Positions 3,921 through 37,300 of a stretch of 64,000 nucleotides of DNA are shown here, piece by piece. A program made the position numbers. Origin of the DNA: Podarcis muralis (Eukaryota); assembly GCF_964188315.1 (NCBI RefSeq), contig NC_135670.1, positions 992,001 through 1,056,000 on the forward strand. The letters are read 5' to 3'. How positions within the stretch are numbered: the stretch's first letter is position 1; each line of letters begins with the position of its first letter.

Positions 3921-6900
3921 AAAGAAGAAGAGGAATACAAAGAAGAATACGAGTGTCTTACAAAGGATCGTCAATCATCGTTTGTGAAGGCTGCTCCATG
4001 AATGATGGGGTATTAGAGTGGAAGAAGACTTGAGAAACAATCTCACCAATGAGAAGGTCTCCGGGCTGATAAAAACCATGACGAATAGGGAGGGGATCCT
4101 CAAACATGCTGAAATTAATAAAATGTGTGTTGCATGCAGTATGACACAGCAGTACAAGAAGGAAGGCTACCACCAGCATGATCCTGTTCATAAAACTGTC
4201 CCTCCAAAGATGCAGTGCCATGTTTCTGAGTGTAACAATCTATGCAATTGCTATCAGTTTTGCTCCAGTCCCAATTGAATGGTGGGTGATATTGTTGCTA
4301 CATAAATATACAGCACAGTTGGTTAGGGAAGCTATGCACTGGTATCCTAATAATAGCTCCTTGTTCATCAGTGTTTCCAAATAGTCTGCTTTTATCCTTT
4401 GACAGAGAGTATGAATTGCAATGCTGTTGTTGCTTTCTTCCTTTAAAAATTAAATGAAATGATAAAACATTCTGTTGGTGTGCAAAGATGCCAAAATTAT
4501 AACCATGTGAATTCTCAATCTGTTTGCCCAGATGAACAGACAATACATTTCAGGGCATCTCTATTATTTCATATTGCTGAATAAGGTTAAGTTTTCCACA
4601 GGAATAATATGTGGTGTGGAAGTCAGCAAGGAAGAGAAAGTACGAGCAACAAATATGACCATGGTATCACGATTTCTGGTTAGAAATCATGGTGGAATAA
4701 CTTGGTAGAAGTCAAACCTAACATATAAAAATTTAGGGTAATAACAAAAGATGTCTGAGCCCTACCTGTTCCTAGATCCAATTCTGACAAATACAAGAGT
4801 TTTATACCTCTTTTCAAATGTTTATTCTTGCCCTTGCTCACTGGCTCTGGGTGCCGTTGCATCAGAGAGGGGAAAGCAGCAATTTTGACAATGATAGTGA
4901 TTATTATCATTTGTTTATGCCTTTGAAGTTGCAACCAGCACAACAAGATTGCTGAAAGTGATTTTCCTGGATTTTGCAGCTATTATTATCTCTTATCCCA
5001 TTAGCCAAAGTGGTACCTCAGGTTAAGATCGGTTTCAGGTTAAGAACGGACCTCCGGAATGAATTAAGTTTGTAACCAGAGGTACCACTGTACATACAAT
5101 CCAGCTACTAATTCCCCATTTGTATCTGTCCTACATGGGGAAGATAAACTCAGAGAATCTGGGTCTCATGTTTCACACTGATGATGTCTCTCCATGAAGG
5201 GATATACCTTTAGCACCCAATGAATGGAAGATCAGTGTATTAGCAGGATAACAAATTGGCAGAACAACTTTATGGAGTTAAAAATTGTTGTCAGCTTTAT
5301 TGGTTACAGATGTAGGTTGTAGGCTATTTCTAAGAATGAAAAGGATGAGTGTTGAGAAATACAAGGAATTACTTTCTCTGGTTTTCATCCAATAAATGCC
5401 AGCAAACAATGCAAAAATTAAAAGCATCAACGCAAGCTGATTCCTATTTGCTCCTCAGAATTAAGTGGCCTTTGCTGTTCAAGTCGGGCCTCAGAAGAAT
5501 GATGTACAATTTGGGGGCAAAGATACAACCCAGCAAACCTGCGCTGGAGGCCAAGATGCAAAAGACCTCCACAGCCACCATCTGCTTTCCTTTGGTGCTC
5601 AGATAAGAGGGAACAAAGGACAGCCAAACGCTGCAGAACACCAACATGCTGAAGGTGATGAACTTGGCTTCGTTGAAACTGTCCGGCAACCTCTTGGCCA
5701 GGAAAGCCATAGTGAAGCTGACCATGGCCAGGAATCCCAGATAACCCAGGACAGAATAAAACATCGCGACAGAACCTTCGTTGCATTCCACGATGATTTC
5801 CCCCGCCAGAGAGTTCATGTCCACATCTGGGAATGGAGGAGCCGTACAGAGCCAAGCAGCACAAATGCTGGTTTGAACTGAGCAGCAGCCAAGAAGCACA
5901 GAGTTTGTGAGAGATTTCCCCACCCATTTCCTCATCCTGGATCCTGGTTTGGTGGCCATGAAAGCCAGAACCACCGTGATGGTTTTGGCCAAGACACAAG
6001 ACACAGCAATGGAGAAGATGATGCCAAAGGCCGCTTGTCGTAAAGAGCAGCTGACTGGGTGAGGCTGGCCAATGAAGAGCAAGGAGCAGAGGAAGCAGAG
6101 CAAGAGGGCAAGGAGCAGAGTGTAGGTGAGGTCCCGGTTGTTGGCTTTGACAATGGGAGTGTCCCCATTCCTAGAGAAGACGCCAAGTATCCAAGCTGTG
6201 ACCAGAGAAAAGGCCAGAGCTAAGGAAGCTAAAAGGAACCCTAAAGGTTCTGCGTAGGAAAGAAAATGTTGGCGTTTGGGGATGCATTGATCTCTGTCCT
6301 TGTTTGGAAATTGGTCATCTTGGCAGTGGAAACAATAATCCATATCTAAAGAAAATAAAAATGAAATGAGTGATAAATGAGTTCCAACAAATAAGGCATT
6401 AATTAGTTGGAATATGTATCAGAGATAAGTGAATATTGAAAACTGTTTGTACAATCTCCTGCCATTATGCATAATCCACAATAGGCTCTATGTTTTGATG
6501 GGGCTAAGGTGCATGGATTGTTCATCTACTCTGTCCTTCATCTGGAGTTAGTGATCAGAAACATGGCCTTTGGTTGTGCCCTTAGCTAGAGTTGGTCACA
6601 ATTCTTTGTGGTACAATGTGCAAAATAGTAATACCAGATTCCCTAGGGAAAGTTGAAATAGGTATTAGGAAGCATTATACAAAATAGCAGATTACGTCTC
6701 CTACCCATTTGATTCGAAATCATCCCATGTGGACACGAAGCACAATCATAGCAACAAAATGGCAGCCCCTCCTTCTTTTTCCTGCTGTAGCCTGGCTGGC
6801 AGCGATCATTACACAAGGCAAGGGGCAGCACCTAGCCATAAAAAGAGGAGAAAATGTAGCTCTCTTGTGCCTTGTAAACAACACAGTTCTAACCAAAGAC

Positions 6901-34300: not shown

Positions 34301-37300
34301 GGAATCTTGTAGATGCTTAAGATACTAGCCATGTGGAGGGAGATGTCAGAGTCAAGTCCCCCAACAAAAGCTATCTTACTTTTCTTCTTCTCACATTTGA
34401 AGTTGGGGACAATCCCTTCTGCCATGGACAAAATTTTCAGCGTGTTCTGATAAGTCATCCTTTCTTTTGAGTAGTTCTCATATATGTGAAACCCAAAGGT
34501 CATATTCGGTACAATATTAGGGTTCTTGTTTATTTCTTTCACAGCAAACACCAGGGAGAGGGTATTCTGGTAGTACTTTGGTATGTCACTAATAAAAGAG
34601 TTATACTATATGTCAGAGGTATTCTCCTCCACATAGGTAACTTCTTGGCTCACATGCACGTATATAATTTGCCACATCCTTCCCTTAACTCCTTATTTCC
34701 TTTCAGCAACCAATGGACACCCATTGGATGAGAAGTTGCCAAGTCAAAAATTCTGACTGGTGCCTCTCAGATAGTAAGTGTTTGGTGTAGGTGGGGAGTA
34801 GAGAACAGATAACATTAGATGGAACAGAACCTATTATTTCCACAGTAATGGAGTTTCCATCTCTCCCTCCTTTAAATAAAATTATGGCTGTACCAAAAAT
34901 ACTGTAGCCAATGTAAGTCATACTCTGAGAAGGCCTATTATGATTAATAGATCAGACTAAGTTAGTTGTATTAATTTCAGTGGGTCTACTCTACAAATAA
35001 GCCAGATAGATACTTTGTTTTGCAAAAACAAGTTTGCAACTGCTCTTTTTATTATCCAATATGGTTTACATTGCATAGCAGAGAATATAATCCAAAATCT
35101 ATGATATTCATGTTTCACAGCATCTGTGACTGTCAGATTAAATTATTCTGATTGTGAATGTGAGGATCAATCTTTGCTGCAAAGGAAAACCAGGCGTTAA
35201 TGGTGTGAAAGGAAACACAGAGGGAGGATGAGGATGAAGTTGGGAGAAGGCGGTGAGAGCCATGGGATCAGGTGTTAAGAAAGCAGAACAGGTAGAAGAT
35301 AGAAACCTCAAGAAGTGGAATCAAGCAATGAAGAGGCCAAGATCACAATGTAAAGAGAAGAATATATATATATATTTAACATTCCTACTGGGGAAAAAAT
35401 CATGTGGAAATGTGTTCTGAGGATGCCATTGTATGTTTGGTGTAATTGTAGCATACATGAGCTCACCAAGGGTACACAATGAAGGATAGAGTTTTTTTAC
35501 TTACAAGAGTTCATCTATATGCTTTGTGTTTGGGCGCTCATGGAAATCGATTTCTTCAAATACAAAGTCAAAATAAGAAACAATTCCTCCAATGACTAGG
35601 TCCCCTCTCTGATAATTCTGGTATGGAAGCTGGAAAGGCTCCATCATGGTGCATCTAGCAGAGTGTTCCTTGCTCTCAGTTGGAGGCAACTGCAGCCACA
35701 GGAAGAGAAGAATCAGCAGCAGAAATGTTCTGACCATCTTGGGGCCAGCGGGGATGCCGAAAGTCAGATTTCTATCTCATCTACCATAAACTTCTTTCCA
35801 AGAACATTCATTTCATGACTCTAGGTTGTTTTGATAAAGGGAAAAAGCCAAAGCTCTGATCTATGAAAATCTGCATGTTCAGAATTTCTCATCAGGGGTC
35901 TGAATAACACAGGATTTATTTTATATACACTTTCACACTCTGACATTGATTGTGTTCATGGCCTGAAAAAGTGTACATGGAATTTGGCAAGATTGATGAT
36001 AAAACCCAGCAGTTTGAGATAATTACTGGTTCCAAAGTTATCTCCTTAGAGGAATGAGCTCTGTGACTTACAGTAAGATGAAAATAATGATGCATATTTG
36101 TTCTTGAGTAGTGCCCTGGTAATTGCGCCTGCATCCCAGTACAGCATTCGCCACTCTGTTGTTGACTATGAGGGCCACTCCATTTCTTTTACGGGTTTCT
36201 TGCCCACAGTAGTAGATATGATGGTCATCTGAACTGAATTCGCCCGGACACGACTAAACGACTAAACAACAAATTGCGAGTGCCCCAGGCAAGCAAGCAG
36301 TCCAGCTGCAAACTGGTGCCCTGAAGGGAGCTTCCTTGATTTCCCAACACTCTTCCTCAATCACACCTGCACCATTTCCCCCAACTGTACATGTGTCACC
36401 AATGGAGACATGATTTTCAGGATTTTCAGGGATGTTTCCTGTGTACCAGTTAAAGGGAGAGAGGGAAGGATTCAGAAATCCTGTATTACATGGGCTAACA
36501 GCAGAAACTGACTTGCTACTGTATATAAAAAATATAGATCAATGCATATGGAAGTGGAGAATTTCCTTTTGTTATCTTAGAGTTGGAGAGCAATGTGAGA
36601 GACTCATGAAGGTGACAATGGAGGCTTAAATGCAGTGGTACAACTTGAAACATACAATGCATGTGGTTGTGGCATGTGGGAAGAGAAAGGGCAGTAAGGT
36701 CATGAAATTGACAAAGTGACTGACAGAGACAAGCTGAAGGTTAAGTTCCAATATTTACCTTTTTATAGGGTGGGGTAGATAATATATAAGATCCTTCTTG
36801 AGTTTTCACTGTTACCCCTCAGTGGGAGAATGGTCTCCCTGGGAAGGGCCTGGGTTTTGCCCCTTTGGGGGCTGTCACAATGAACTCCTGAACTTCAGAA
36901 TTCACCACTGCACCACTGGTCAAGAGAATAAGAAAGAGTCTGTATGGTGTTTGGGTGAGATATAATAATTTTTTTAGAAAGAAAAACGTTGTTATGGCTA
37001 TCCCACACCAAAGCAAATGCCCTAAAGAAAATTAATATGGAAAGGAAATGGGGCACTTATAGAGATATATTGACTTTTGCTGGTGCTGGTTTTAAACTTA
37101 AAAAATTAGAAGACATCGAGGACCGAGTACAAGACTGTGAGTAGGCCCAGTGAGACCCAACAGGACCTGTTGCTGCCGCAGAAAGATCCAATGGGGCCTG
37201 CCGCTGGTAGTCCTGCCAAGGCCCGGCCCCTCAAGATGGCAGGGGTCTCAGTCCCATCCCAATATATTTGGGGTAGGGGCTGAGGTGTCCTAAGACTCAT

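What the first reader, a model, noticed from the sequence alone, without database searches (positions are those of the whole stretch)
5444..35737. Paralogs B and D: ligand-binding exons diverged, 7TM exon nearly identical
Seen (hand counts): amino-acid differences are about 6/78 in exon 1 (all after residue 47), 23/97 in exon 2, 26/289 in exon 3, but 3/299 in exon 6. Exon 6 shows only ~4 synonymous changes, while the shared introns look several-fold more divergent. Known: exons 1-3 encode the Venus flytrap ligand domain. Inference: positive selection on the binding lobe, plus gene conversion or strong constraint on the 7TM exon; the pair may be a receptor specificity switch in progress.
[Added by the scan's program, not by the reader: the finding's places include an assembly gap (unread letters, written N; its length is only estimated) at 22592 to 22729. 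Whether the letters on both sides are continuous or in frame is not known: test that first.]
Basis: partly seen in the sequence, partly recalled or inferred. Interest (0 to 1): 0.65.

Follow-up and report, generated by a model that had tools for sequence, protein, structure and literature searches.

The report
Two mosaic vomeronasal-type receptor gene copies
Two nearby copies of a vomeronasal-type smell-receptor gene differ most in the ligand-binding part and least in the membrane part, mainly because stretches of the two genes were copied onto each other at different times, which is an ordinary pattern for this gene family.

Summary
B (12674..5444, minus) and D (35737..30022, minus) are intact six-exon, 882-codon class-C GPCR genes with VFT, cysteine-rich and 7TM domains, V2R-like. 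They lie in a tandem cluster of at least six such genes. Exon 6 has 4 synonymous changes (dS 0.0195), against intron divergence of 216/2094 (0.103).

Positive selection is not shown: omega is 0.71-0.94 for exon 2, 1.13-1.48 for exon 3 and 1.12 for the whole VFT (test against 1, p=0.66). None of the 8 positions equivalent to CaSR agonist contacts differs.

Homogenisation is supported. Silent sites fall into a mosaic: about 11% background; 3.75% over intron 2 plus exon 3; 3.3% in the distal 3' flank; 0.9% over exon 6 plus about 80 nt beyond the stop. Each block beat 200 of 200 shuffles, includes or consists of non-coding DNA, and ends at indels. So the exon-to-exon gradient is largely a mosaic of ages from gene conversion, with stronger constraint on the 7TM on top.

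The N gap lies in intron 3 of the intervening gene C and touches neither copy. This is a new member of a known kind and of modest interest.

The parts
4997..13179 (-). Duplicated unit holding copy B, from about 0.5 kb upstream of the ATG to about 0.45 kb past the stop
   Evidence: Self-blastn HSPs and MAFFT alignment with 29415-36425
29415..36425 (-). Duplicated unit holding copy D
12442..12674 (-). B exon 1 (ATG, signal peptide, start of the extracellular domain)
   Evidence: no Pfam or PDB match when searched alone
10447..10738 (-). B exon 2 (VFT, lobe 1 part)
   Evidence: Pfam ANF_receptor 27.8 bits; CaSR residues 73-164
9089..9955 (-). B exon 3 (VFT, main part)
   Evidence: Pfam ANF_receptor 99.6 bits; CaSR E=1e-29
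8179..8406 (-). B exon 4 (end of VFT)
   Evidence: ANF_receptor 20.2 bits, below the 25.4 cut-off
6705..6831 (-). B exon 5 (cysteine-rich domain)
   Evidence: Pfam NCD3G 50.5 bits; boundaries
5444..6345 (-). B exon 6 (linker, 7TM, short tail, stop codon)
   Evidence: Pfam 7tm_3 278 bits; CaSR 7TM E=4.8e-78
35505..35737 (-). D exon 1
34297..34588 (-). D exon 2
32928..33794 (-). D exon 3
   Evidence: ANF_receptor 98.6 bits
31708..31935 (-). D exon 4
31038..31164 (-). D exon 5
30022..30923 (-). D exon 6
   Evidence: 7tm_3 279 bits
5366..6346 (-). Low-divergence block 1 in B (exon 6 plus 78 nt of 3' flank); counterpart in D is 29944-30924
   Evidence: 2 of 220 silent sites differ against 0.0945 outside; 0 of 200 shuffles reach the score; coordinates
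9087..10324 (-). Low-divergence block 2 in B (most of intron 2 plus exon 3); counterpart in D is 32926-34165
   Evidence: 18 of 480 silent sites against 0.105 outside; 0 of 200 shuffles; intron 2 alone 27/490 against 189/1604 in the other introns, p=2.9e-5
5002..5301 (-). Low-divergence block 3 in B (distal 3' flank, non-coding); counterpart in D is 29420-29883, which holds a D-only 164-nt insertion
   Evidence: 10 of 300 against 0.114 outside; 0 of 200 shuffles; insertion seen
22592..22729 (.). Assembly gap (N), inside intron 3 of gene C; not part of B or D
17200..28562 (-). Gene C, a divergent V2R-like paralogue lying between B and D (about 74% nt identity to B/D in exon 6); all six exons found outside the gap
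   Evidence: tblastn with B exon peptides; blastn

Best explanation
B and D are two intact, same-strand paralogues of a V2R-type class-C GPCR gene: a Venus-flytrap ligand domain, a cysteine-rich domain and a 7TM. They arose from a duplication of about 7-8 kb. Its undisturbed non-coding sequence is now about 10-13% diverged. After the duplication, non-allelic gene conversion re-homogenised parts of the pair at least twice. An older event or events covered intron 2 plus exon 3 and the distal 3' flank (3-4% silent divergence). A recent event covered exon 6 and the first 80-90 nt after the stop (about 1%). The tracts stop where the two copies carry indels or private transposon insertions. On top of this age mosaic the domains differ in constraint. 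The VFT exons change protein sequence at about the local neutral rate (omega about 1, in clustered patches), and the 7TM exon at about a quarter of it. The steep exon 2 > exon 3 > exon 6 gradient in amino-acid differences is the product of both effects. Shown here: the gene models, the domains, the divergence mosaic and its significance, and the omega estimates. Inferred: that the mosaic comes from gene conversion, and that heterology set the tract ends.
For: Domains were searched exon by exon: ANF_receptor in exons 2-4, NCD3G in exon 5, 7tm_3 in exon 6. CaSR is the best solved relative.

Segment divergence: 5' flank 0.101, intron 1 0.101, exon 2 0.120, intron 2 0.055, exon 3 0.042, intron 3 0.128, exon 4 0.035, intron 4 0.129, exon 5 0.032, exon 6 0.0078, 3' flank 0.054. 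The pattern persists when CpG sites are excluded and in a blastn-based count.

A scan over 3385 silent sites (non-coding plus four-fold sites) found three low blocks: 2/220, 18/480 and 10/300, against about 0.114 in the rest. Each had 0 of 200 shuffles reaching its score.

Non-coding DNA shares the low divergence. Intron 2 differs at 27/490 against 189/1604 in the other introns (p=2.9e-5). The first 87 nt after the stop hold 1 difference (P=8.5e-4). Block 3 is wholly non-coding. Coding constraint alone does not explain this.

Block ends coincide with heterology: a 245-nt length difference in intron 5 right before exon 6, a 4-nt indel with a substitution cluster at 5320-5338, a 10-nt indel near 10330-10347, and loss of homology after the exon 3 donor.

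Both genes are under selection to stay open. There are 0 indels in 2649 coding nt where 24.4 small ones are expected from the non-coding rate (P=2.6e-11). P(no stop) for 101 random substitutions is 0.023.

Omega (NG86 / ML): exon 2 0.71/0.94, exon 3 1.13/1.48, exon 6 0.22/0.28.

Each copy has a private insertion of a young MITE-like element (B intron 1, D intron 3), so they are separate loci rather than one locus assembled twice.
Against: With only two close sequences there is no phylogenetic test of conversion. B and D are each other's nearest relatives in every exon. The case therefore rests on rate heterogeneity, which regional mutation-rate differences or misaligned introns could mimic in part.

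Against other exons, rather than introns, the exon 6 deficit is only borderline: four-fold sites 1/141 against 9/202, p=0.052; NG86 synonymous 4/207.5 against 23.7/365.2, p=0.014. Block 1 against block 3 gives p=0.081 and against block 2 p=0.048.

Four-fold sites of exons 1-5 (9/202) are also below the non-coding rate (p=0.012). This could mean that introns overstate the neutral rate.

The 5' end of block 1 coincides with the exon boundary, which is also what exon-limited constraint would give.

The difference in omega between VFT and 7TM is not significant (LRT p=0.084; Fisher p=0.082).

The assembly is a draft with a gap, and mixing of paralogues in the consensus was not excluded.
Confidence: 0.65

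Rival explanations
1. Diversifying (positive) selection on the ligand-binding lobe is driving B and D towards different ligand specificities, while the 7TM is held constant.
For: Omega is about 1 over the whole VFT in two genes that are clearly kept open. For a functional protein this is high and fits a mix of constrained and positively selected sites. Replacements are patchy. In exon 2 there are 15 neighbour pairs no more than 2 residues apart, a count reached in 0.2% of 5000 permutations. In exon 3, 21 of 138 residues differ in the first part against 7 of 151 in the second (p=0.0026), although silent rates are similar (pS 0.044 and 0.032). One patch (exon 2 residues 35-42, six differences) aligns to CaSR 97-104, including T100 and N102. 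The CaSR structure paper places these directly above the cleft, abutting the agonist site (PMC4977154, passages). Positions next to A168 and S170 also differ (Y/F at the 167 equivalent, T/A at the 171 equivalent). Published V2R/OlfC analyses place positively selected sites mostly in the N-terminal region (PMC6588630 and PMC12400810, passages).
Against: No omega is significantly above 1: exon 2 LRT p=0.88, exon 3 p=0.34, VFT p=0.66; first part of exon 3, 22/323.5 against 4/90.5, p=0.62. None of the 8 equivalents of the CaSR agonist contacts (W70, T145, S147, A168, S170, Y218, E297, A298) differs between B and D. Differences are not enriched at family-variable columns or depleted at invariant ones when pooled: 13/118 against 34/245, p=0.51. 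Derived states fall on both lineages (D 20, B 12, unresolved 22; p=0.22).
Confidence: 0.3
2. The ligand domain is under relaxed constraint. After duplication one or both copies became partly redundant, and the VFT drifts neutrally while the reading frame is still intact.
For: VFT omega cannot be told from 1. In exon 2, differences hit columns that are invariant in paralogues A, C and E as often as variable ones (10/44 against 10/48). Exon 2 non-synonymous divergence equals intron divergence (25.8/231.2 against 216/2094, p=0.65).
Against: There are no frameshifts in 2649 nt where about 24 small indels are expected (P=2.6e-11), no stops, and all splice sites are kept in both copies. Replacements are clustered rather than uniform. 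In exon 3 they avoid invariant columns (3/74 against 24/197, p=0.066).
Confidence: 0.15
3. There was no conversion. Purifying selection acts on the 7TM, and mutation-rate or alignment differences between exons and introns account for the rest.
For: Block 1 begins at the exon 6 acceptor. Four-fold sites of all exons lie below the non-coding rate. The 7TM is the most conserved part across paralogues (219 of 298 columns identical between C and E).
Against: Protein-level selection does not lower synonymous or non-coding divergence. Even so, four-fold sites in exon 6 differ at 1/141 against 291/3042 in non-coding sequence (p=3.3e-5), the 87 nt after the stop hold 1 difference (P=8.5e-4), and intron 2 and the distal 3' flank are 2-3 times less diverged than the other non-coding segments. 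Excluding CpG sites does not change the pattern.
Confidence: 0.08
4. Assembly artefact. In a draft assembly, reads from two similar paralogues were mixed, making exon 6 look more alike than it is.
For: The window holds an assembly gap between the two copies. Exon 6 contains two identical runs of about 325 nt. Chemoreceptor clusters are hard to assemble (general knowledge).
Against: Exon 6 still carries 7 differences spread along its length, so it was not simply collapsed. The other low blocks sit at intermediate divergence (3-4%), which mixing does not predict. Each copy has private indels and a private MITE insertion.
Confidence: 0.1

Closest known systems
Vomeronasal type-2 receptors (V2R / Vmn2r; fish OlfC), class-C GPCRs in tandem clusters
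   Same: Same domain order, ANF_receptor/VFT then NCD3G then 7tm_3. Six coding exons with the 7TM in the last one. A tandem cluster of at least six paralogues. The N-terminal region is variable and the 7TM conserved; the low conservation of the V2R N-terminal region is stated in PMC3590772 (passage). Published selection scans find positively selected sites mostly in the N-terminal or extracellular region (PMC6588630 and PMC12400810, passages).
   Different: Nothing found here departs from the family. Membership against CaSR, T1R or GPRC6A could not be settled by a tree, because the protein databases were closed. It rests on the multi-copy cluster, on CaSR being the best solved hit at only about 30% identity in the VFT, and on loss of the amino-acid-contact residues.
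Calcium-sensing receptor (CaSR), the closest solved structure
   Same: Best PDB match for exon 2 (E=1e-8), exon 3 (E=1e-29) and exon 6 (E=4.8e-78). The S147 equivalent is kept.
   Different: The equivalents of A168, S170, Y218, E297 and A298 are C, L, N, A and Q in both B and D. The amino-acid-binding signature described for CaSR (PMC4977154) is therefore not kept. The gene is multi-copy and has a short C-terminal tail.
Interlocus gene conversion among clustered chemoreceptor paralogues (for example OlfC subfamily 9, detected with GENECONV)
   Same: Close, same-strand paralogues carry tracts of lowered divergence. PMC6588630 reports possible conversion events among OlfC genes (passages). PMC3590772 names conversion among squamate V2Rs as something still to be tested (passage).
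   Different: Here the evidence is a silent-site mosaic in one pair, including introns and flank, not a multi-sequence fragment test. I found no paper describing conversion limited to the 7TM exon of V2Rs. The tract table of PMC6588630 is in a supplement that I could not see.

Membership tests
Class-C GPCR, V2R-type | N-terminal Venus-flytrap (ANF_receptor) domain | tested here: met
   Exon 2 scores 27.8 bits and exon 3 scores 99.6 bits, both above the 25.4 cut-off. Exon 4 scores 20.2 bits, below the cut-off, matching profile positions 316-351.
Class-C GPCR, V2R-type | Nine-cysteine (NCD3G) domain between VFT and 7TM | tested here: met
   Exon 5 scores 50.5 bits against a cut-off of 38.9.
Class-C GPCR, V2R-type | 7tm_3 transmembrane domain | tested here: met
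   Exon 6 of B scores 278.3 bits and of D 279.0 bits, covering the full 251-position profile.
Class-C GPCR, V2R-type | Groups with V2Rs rather than CaSR, T1R or GPRC6A in a tree with reference sequences | not testable with these tools
CaSR is the best solved hit. A multi-copy tandem cluster argues for V2R.
Class-C GPCR, V2R-type | Expression in vomeronasal sensory neurons | not testable with these tools
   No expression data are available.
Interlocus (non-allelic) gene conversion | A tract with silent divergence significantly below that of the flanking homologous sequence | tested here: met
   Three blocks, each with 0 of 200 shuffles reaching its score.
Interlocus (non-allelic) gene conversion | The tract includes non-coding sequence, so coding constraint cannot explain it | tested here: met
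   Intron 2 differs at 27/490 against 189/1604 (p=2.9e-5). The 87 nt after the stop hold 1 difference (P=8.5e-4). Block 3 is wholly non-coding.
Interlocus (non-allelic) gene conversion | Segment-specific tree incongruence with orthologues or further paralogues | not testable with these tools
   No orthologues could be fetched. The other paralogues in the window are too distant (about 74% nt identity or less).
Positive (diversifying) selection on the VFT | dN/dS significantly above 1 for the domain or an exon | tested here: not met
   NG86 gives 0.55, 0.71, 1.13 and 0.75 for exons 1-4. ML gives 0.94 for exon 2, 1.48 for exon 3 and 1.12 for the VFT. The likelihood-ratio tests against 1 give p=0.88, 0.34 and 0.66.
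Positive (diversifying) selection on the VFT | Replacements at ligand-contact positions | tested here: inconclusive
   None of the 8 CaSR agonist-contact equivalents differs. The equivalents of T100 and N102, which abut the site, do differ, as do the neighbours of A168 and S170. The mapping is by per-exon sequence alignment at about 30% identity, not on a model.
Positive (diversifying) selection on the VFT | Site or branch-site models with orthologues | not testable with these tools
   Neither orthologues nor codeml/HyPhy were available.

The most novel reading that the evidence does not exclude
Conversion in this V2R cluster may be modular and maintained. Tracts bounded by intron heterologies would repeatedly re-homogenise the 7TM/signalling exon of neighbouring paralogues while the ligand-binding exons escape. 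The signalling module would then evolve in concert and the binding module would diversify. If this is general, V2R trees built from the 7TM alone would systematically make old duplicates look like recent, species-specific expansions. In this pair, exon 6 nucleotide divergence (0.8%) is about 13 times lower than that of the undisturbed introns.
Probability: 0.25. Interest if true: 0.5.

Novelty: new member of a known kind. Interest (0 to 1): 0.25.

Why it matters
The biology is the expected one for V2R clusters: a variable binding domain, a conserved 7TM, tandem duplication and some conversion.

The useful point concerns method. In this pair the apparent age of the duplication depends about 13-fold on which segment is read: 0.8% in exon 6, about 4% in exon 3, and 10-13% in introns 1, 3 and 4. 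Repertoire studies often build V2R trees from the transmembrane region only; the Komodo dragon preprint 10.1101/551978 does so (passages). Conversion of that exon would inflate the number of inferred 'species-specific' recent expansions.

It also shows that differences in per-exon amino-acid divergence between young paralogues should not be read as differential selection before the local silent divergence is checked.

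Tried and rejected
- Exon 1 searched alone found nothing useful: 0 Pfam families and only 4 unrelated PDB hits with E>=0.45. Its six replacements could not be mapped to a structure.
- Outgroup polarisation with paralogues A, C and E gave D-derived 20, B-derived 12 and unresolved 22. There is no significant asymmetry (p=0.22), so the idea that one copy is the fast one was dropped.
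- I tested whether B/D differences sit at family-variable columns. Exon 2 gave p=1, exon 3 p=0.066 and the pooled set p=0.51. This does not separate relaxed from positive selection.
- Conversion of exon 2 from another paralogue in the window, as an explanation for its high divergence, was rejected. B and D exon 2 are both only 68-70% identical to A, C and E.
- B and D being one locus assembled twice (alleles) was rejected. They show about 10% intron divergence, 46 indel events, and private MITE insertions.
- The tRNA scan (0 genes) and the Rfam scan (0 matches) gave no clue to repeat type or organism.
- The tandem-repeat scan of 39800-41400 found only short arrays.
All Pfam and PDB searches were exon by exon, so no full VFT model was made and the changes were not mapped in three dimensions.
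- Not done: codeml, GARD and GENECONV were not available. A pairwise GY94 likelihood and a permutation scan were written in their place.

Full report
**What the window is.** The window has 43.3% G+C, a CpG observed/expected ratio of 0.32 and one run of 138 N at 22592-22729. Stop-to-stop ORFs and tblastn with exon peptides show a tandem cluster of class-C GPCR genes.
- On the minus strand lie A (exons 2-3 in the window, running off the left end), B, C and D.
- On the plus strand lie E and the first exon of a further copy, F.

LINE reverse-transcriptase ORFs and a young MITE-like element lie between and inside the genes. Rfam and tRNA scans found nothing. I do not take the contig for human. It carries several V2R-type genes with open exons and repeats of a non-primate kind. 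That is inference: no tool named the organism, and the protein databases that could have done so were closed.

**The gap, tested first.** All six exons of gene C were found outside the gap. Exons 4-6 lie at 19782-17200, to its left, and exons 1-3 at 28562-23671, to its right, in the right order and orientation. The N run therefore sits in intron 3 of C. The 1-kb flanks of the gap share nothing with each other (best match 27 nt, E=0.035), and no reading frame crosses it. B lies wholly on the left piece and D wholly on the right. None of the B/D comparison depends on the gap. What stays uncertain is the B-D distance of about 24.4 kb and whether the join is correct. A complete C gene spanning the gap speaks for the join.

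**Gene models.** A MAFFT alignment of the two regions on the gene strand, read at each exon, gives the same six coding exons in both copies: 233, 292, 867, 228, 127 and 902 nt. All introns are GT-AG, the phases match, each gene has 882 codons plus a stop, and the exons have no indel between copies.

Searched exon by exon, Pfam finds the following:

| Exon | Pfam family | Score (bits) |
|---|---|---|
| 2 | ANF_receptor | 27.8 |
| 3 | ANF_receptor | 99.6 |
| 4 | ANF_receptor | 20.2 (below the 25.4 cut-off) |
| 5 | NCD3G | 50.5 |
| 6 | 7tm_3 | 278 |

The best solved relative of exons 2, 3 and 6 is the calcium-sensing receptor (E=1e-8, 1e-29 and 4.8e-78). Exon 1 alone matches nothing. The spliced proteins were not joined for any search or fold.

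**The observation.** Per-exon results (NG86; pairwise GY94 likelihood, omega and test against 1):

| Exon | Amino-acid differences | dS | dN | Omega (NG86) | Omega (ML) | p against 1 |
|---|---|---|---|---|---|---|
| 1 | 6/77 (all after residue 47) | 0.076 | 0.042 | 0.55 | 0.76 | 0.69 |
| 2 | 23/97 | 0.171 | 0.121 | 0.71 | 0.94 | 0.88 |
| 3 | 28/289 (reader: 26) | 0.039 | 0.044 | 1.13 | 1.48 | 0.34 |
| 4 | 6/76 | 0.045 | 0.034 | 0.75 | 1.05 | 0.96 |
| 5 | 2/42 | 0.081 | 0.020 | 0.25 | 0.33 | 0.29 |
| 6 | 3/299 | 0.0195 | 0.0044 | 0.22 | 0.28 | 0.095 |

Exon 6 has 7 nucleotide differences, 4 of them synonymous. Over the whole VFT (exons 1-4) the ML omega is 1.12 (p=0.66). VFT against exon 6 gives p=0.084.

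**Divergence is a mosaic.** Over homologous ungapped columns:

| Segment | Divergence |
|---|---|
| 5' flank | 0.101 |
| Intron 1 | 0.101 |
| Exon 2 | 0.120 |
| Intron 2 | 0.055 |
| Exon 3 | 0.042 |
| Intron 3 | 0.128 |
| Exon 4 | 0.035 |
| Intron 4 | 0.129 |
| Exon 5 | 0.032 |
| Intron 5 | 0.22 (only 68 sites) |
| Exon 6 | 0.0078 |
| 3' flank | 0.054 |

Pooled introns differ at 216/2094. Excluding CpG sites does not change the pattern, and counts from blastn alignments agree (272/3088 non-coding; intron 2 region 0.059).

I then took only silent sites: 3042 non-coding columns plus 343 four-fold sites, with 301 differences. I scanned for the interval of lowest divergence and compared each result with 200 shuffles.

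| Block | B coordinates | Content | Silent differences | Rate outside | Shuffles reaching |
|---|---|---|---|---|---|
| 1 | 6346-5366 | Exon 6 plus 78 nt beyond the stop | 2/220 | 0.0945 | 0 of 200 |
| 2 | 10324-9087 | Most of intron 2 plus exon 3 | 18/480 | 0.105 | 0 of 200 |
| 3 | 5301-5002 | Distal 3' flank | 10/300 | 0.114 | 0 of 200 |

Single tests point the same way:
- Exon 6 synonymous sites against introns: P=2.3e-6.
- Four-fold sites, 1/141 against 291/3042: p=3.3e-5.
- Intron 2 against the other introns: p=2.9e-5.
- The first 87 nt after the stop hold 1 difference: P=8.5e-4.

The comparisons among the low classes are weaker:
- Exon 6 four-fold sites against those of exons 1-5 (9/202): p=0.052.
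- Block 1 against block 2: p=0.048.
- Block 1 against block 3: p=0.081.
- Blocks 2 and 3 cannot be told apart: p=0.85.

**Why I read this as gene conversion.** Low divergence extends into non-coding DNA, so protein-level constraint cannot be the cause. The blocks also end where the copies are heterologous:
- Intron 5 is 359 nt in B and 114 nt in D, directly before exon 6.
- There is a 4-nt indel with a cluster of substitutions at 5320-5338, and a D-only 164-nt insertion further on.
- There is a 10-nt indel near 10330-10347.
- Homology is lost right after the exon 3 donor, where D carries a MITE copy.

The copies lie on the same strand about 24 kb apart. This is the setting in which non-allelic conversion is expected; that expectation is general knowledge, not tested here.

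The consequence for the finding is that local silent divergence runs about 11% at exon 2, about 3.75% at exon 3 and about 0.9-2% at exon 6. Amino-acid divergence runs 23.7%, 9.7% and 1.0%. Most of the gradient therefore tracks time since the last homogenisation. The remaining factor is a roughly four-fold lower omega in the 7TM.

**What can be said about selection on the binding domain.** Both genes are kept open. There are no indels in 2649 coding nt where the non-coding rate of small indels (28 events in 3042 sites) predicts 24.4 (P=2.6e-11). The chance of no stop among 101 random substitutions is 0.023.

The VFT nonetheless changes at about the neutral rate. The changes are patchy:
- In exon 2 they are clustered: 15 neighbour pairs, reached in 0.2% of 5000 permutations.
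- In exon 3 they concentrate in residues 1-138 (21/138 against 7/151, p=0.0026), although silent rates in the two parts are alike (pS 0.044 and 0.032).

This fits a mix of constrained sites with either free or positively selected sites. It does not tell those two apart. Differences hit columns that are invariant in A, C and E about as often as variable ones (pooled 13/118 against 34/245, p=0.51). Derived states lie on both lineages.

**Mapping to CaSR.** The per-exon alignments fix the numbering without gaps across the exon 2/3 junction. The structure paper PMC4977154 (passages) names the L-Trp contacts as S147, A168, S170, E297, W70, T145, Y218 and A298. Their equivalents here are S, C, L, A, N, L, N and Q, identical in B and D, so 0 of 8 differ. 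The W70, A168 and S170 equivalents lie a few residues outside the printed alignments and were placed by ungapped extension. The surrounding residues are identical in B and D except the neighbours at the 167 equivalent (Y/F) and the 171 equivalent (T/A).

A patch of six differences (exon 2 residues 35-42) aligns to CaSR 97-104, including T100 and N102. The paper places these directly above the cleft, next to the agonist site.

Inside the 7tm_3 match only one residue differs (C/Y at exon 6 residue 166). The other two exon 6 replacements precede the first helix.

**Comparison with what is known.**
- Low conservation of the V2R N-terminal region is stated in PMC3590772 (passage).
- Positively selected sites lying mainly in the N-terminal or extracellular region are reported in PMC6588630 and PMC12400810 (passages).
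- Tandem V2R clusters in squamates are described in 10.1101/551978 (passages).
- Possible gene conversion among OlfC/V2R-like paralogues is reported in PMC6588630 (passages).
- PMC3590772 names conversion among squamate V2Rs as untested.
- PMC4316634 has 0 occurrences of 'gene conversion'.

Four searches turned up no paper describing conversion limited to the 7TM exon of V2Rs. That holds only for the library searched. The tract table of PMC6588630 is in a supplement I could not see.

**Verdict.** Homogenisation of exon 6 is supported, and it is part of a wider mosaic that also includes exon 3. Positive selection and a 'specificity switch' are not shown. This is a new member of a known kind and of modest interest. 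Its main value is a caution about dating V2R duplicates from the 7TM and about reading per-exon amino-acid divergence as selection.

Noticed in passing
window 11611-11958, 32383-32742, 54107-54466: Three copies, 96-98% alike, of a roughly 350-bp element with terminal inverted repeats of about 25 nt, looking like a MITE. They lie in B intron 1, D intron 3 (opposite orientation) and E intron 4. The insertions are young and independent, and the B copy lacks part of one terminal repeat.
   Followed up: partly
window about 7900-8030 (B intron 4): A B-only tandem partial duplicate, 131 nt at 87% identity, of the 3' end of exon 4 with its donor site and the start of intron 4. At the codons where B and D differ, this extra copy carries the D-like letters. 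D has no such duplicate.
   Followed up: partly
window 47278-49490 vs 61772-64000; also 43466-44048 vs 59549-60481 and 46610-46817 vs 60483-60690: A second tandem duplication on the plus strand. The upstream region and exon 1 of gene E (48382-48555) recur after E's last exon at 86-93% identity, giving exon 1 of a further gene F (62886-63059). F runs off the window.
   Followed up: no
window 14268-16534 (-) and 44448-46362 (+): LINE-type retrotransposon ORFs with reverse-transcriptase domains (RVT_1, 119.5 and 76.2 bits). One lies between B and C and one upstream of E.
   Followed up: partly
window 56044-56514 and 56728-57194: An inverted repeat of about 470 nt at 96% identity inside intron 5 of gene E.
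   Followed up: no
window 4997-5110 and 29415-29530: Homology between the B and D units ends inside a repeat that begins with the same CAGTGGTACCTC motif as the terminal repeats of the MITE. The duplication boundary may therefore lie in a transposon.
   Followed up: no
window 1-4286 vs 48240-51522: Gene A (minus strand, left edge) belongs to the same subfamily as E and F rather than B/D or C. Exon 2 is 82.7% and exon 3 is 75.1% identical to E at nucleotide level. The cluster therefore interleaves three subfamilies.
   Followed up: no
window 40199-41016: A G+C-rich stretch with long open frames on both strands (204-229 codons) rich in G, P and R. Only short tandem repeats were found. It is unexplained and probably a degenerate repeat.
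   Followed up: partly
B 9938-9955 and 10498-10500; D counterparts: Both copies keep the CaSR S147 equivalent but have C, L, N, A and Q at the A168, S170, Y218, E297 and A298 equivalents. The amino-acid-binding signature of CaSR is absent, which fits a ligand other than a free amino acid. That last point is inference.
   Followed up: partly
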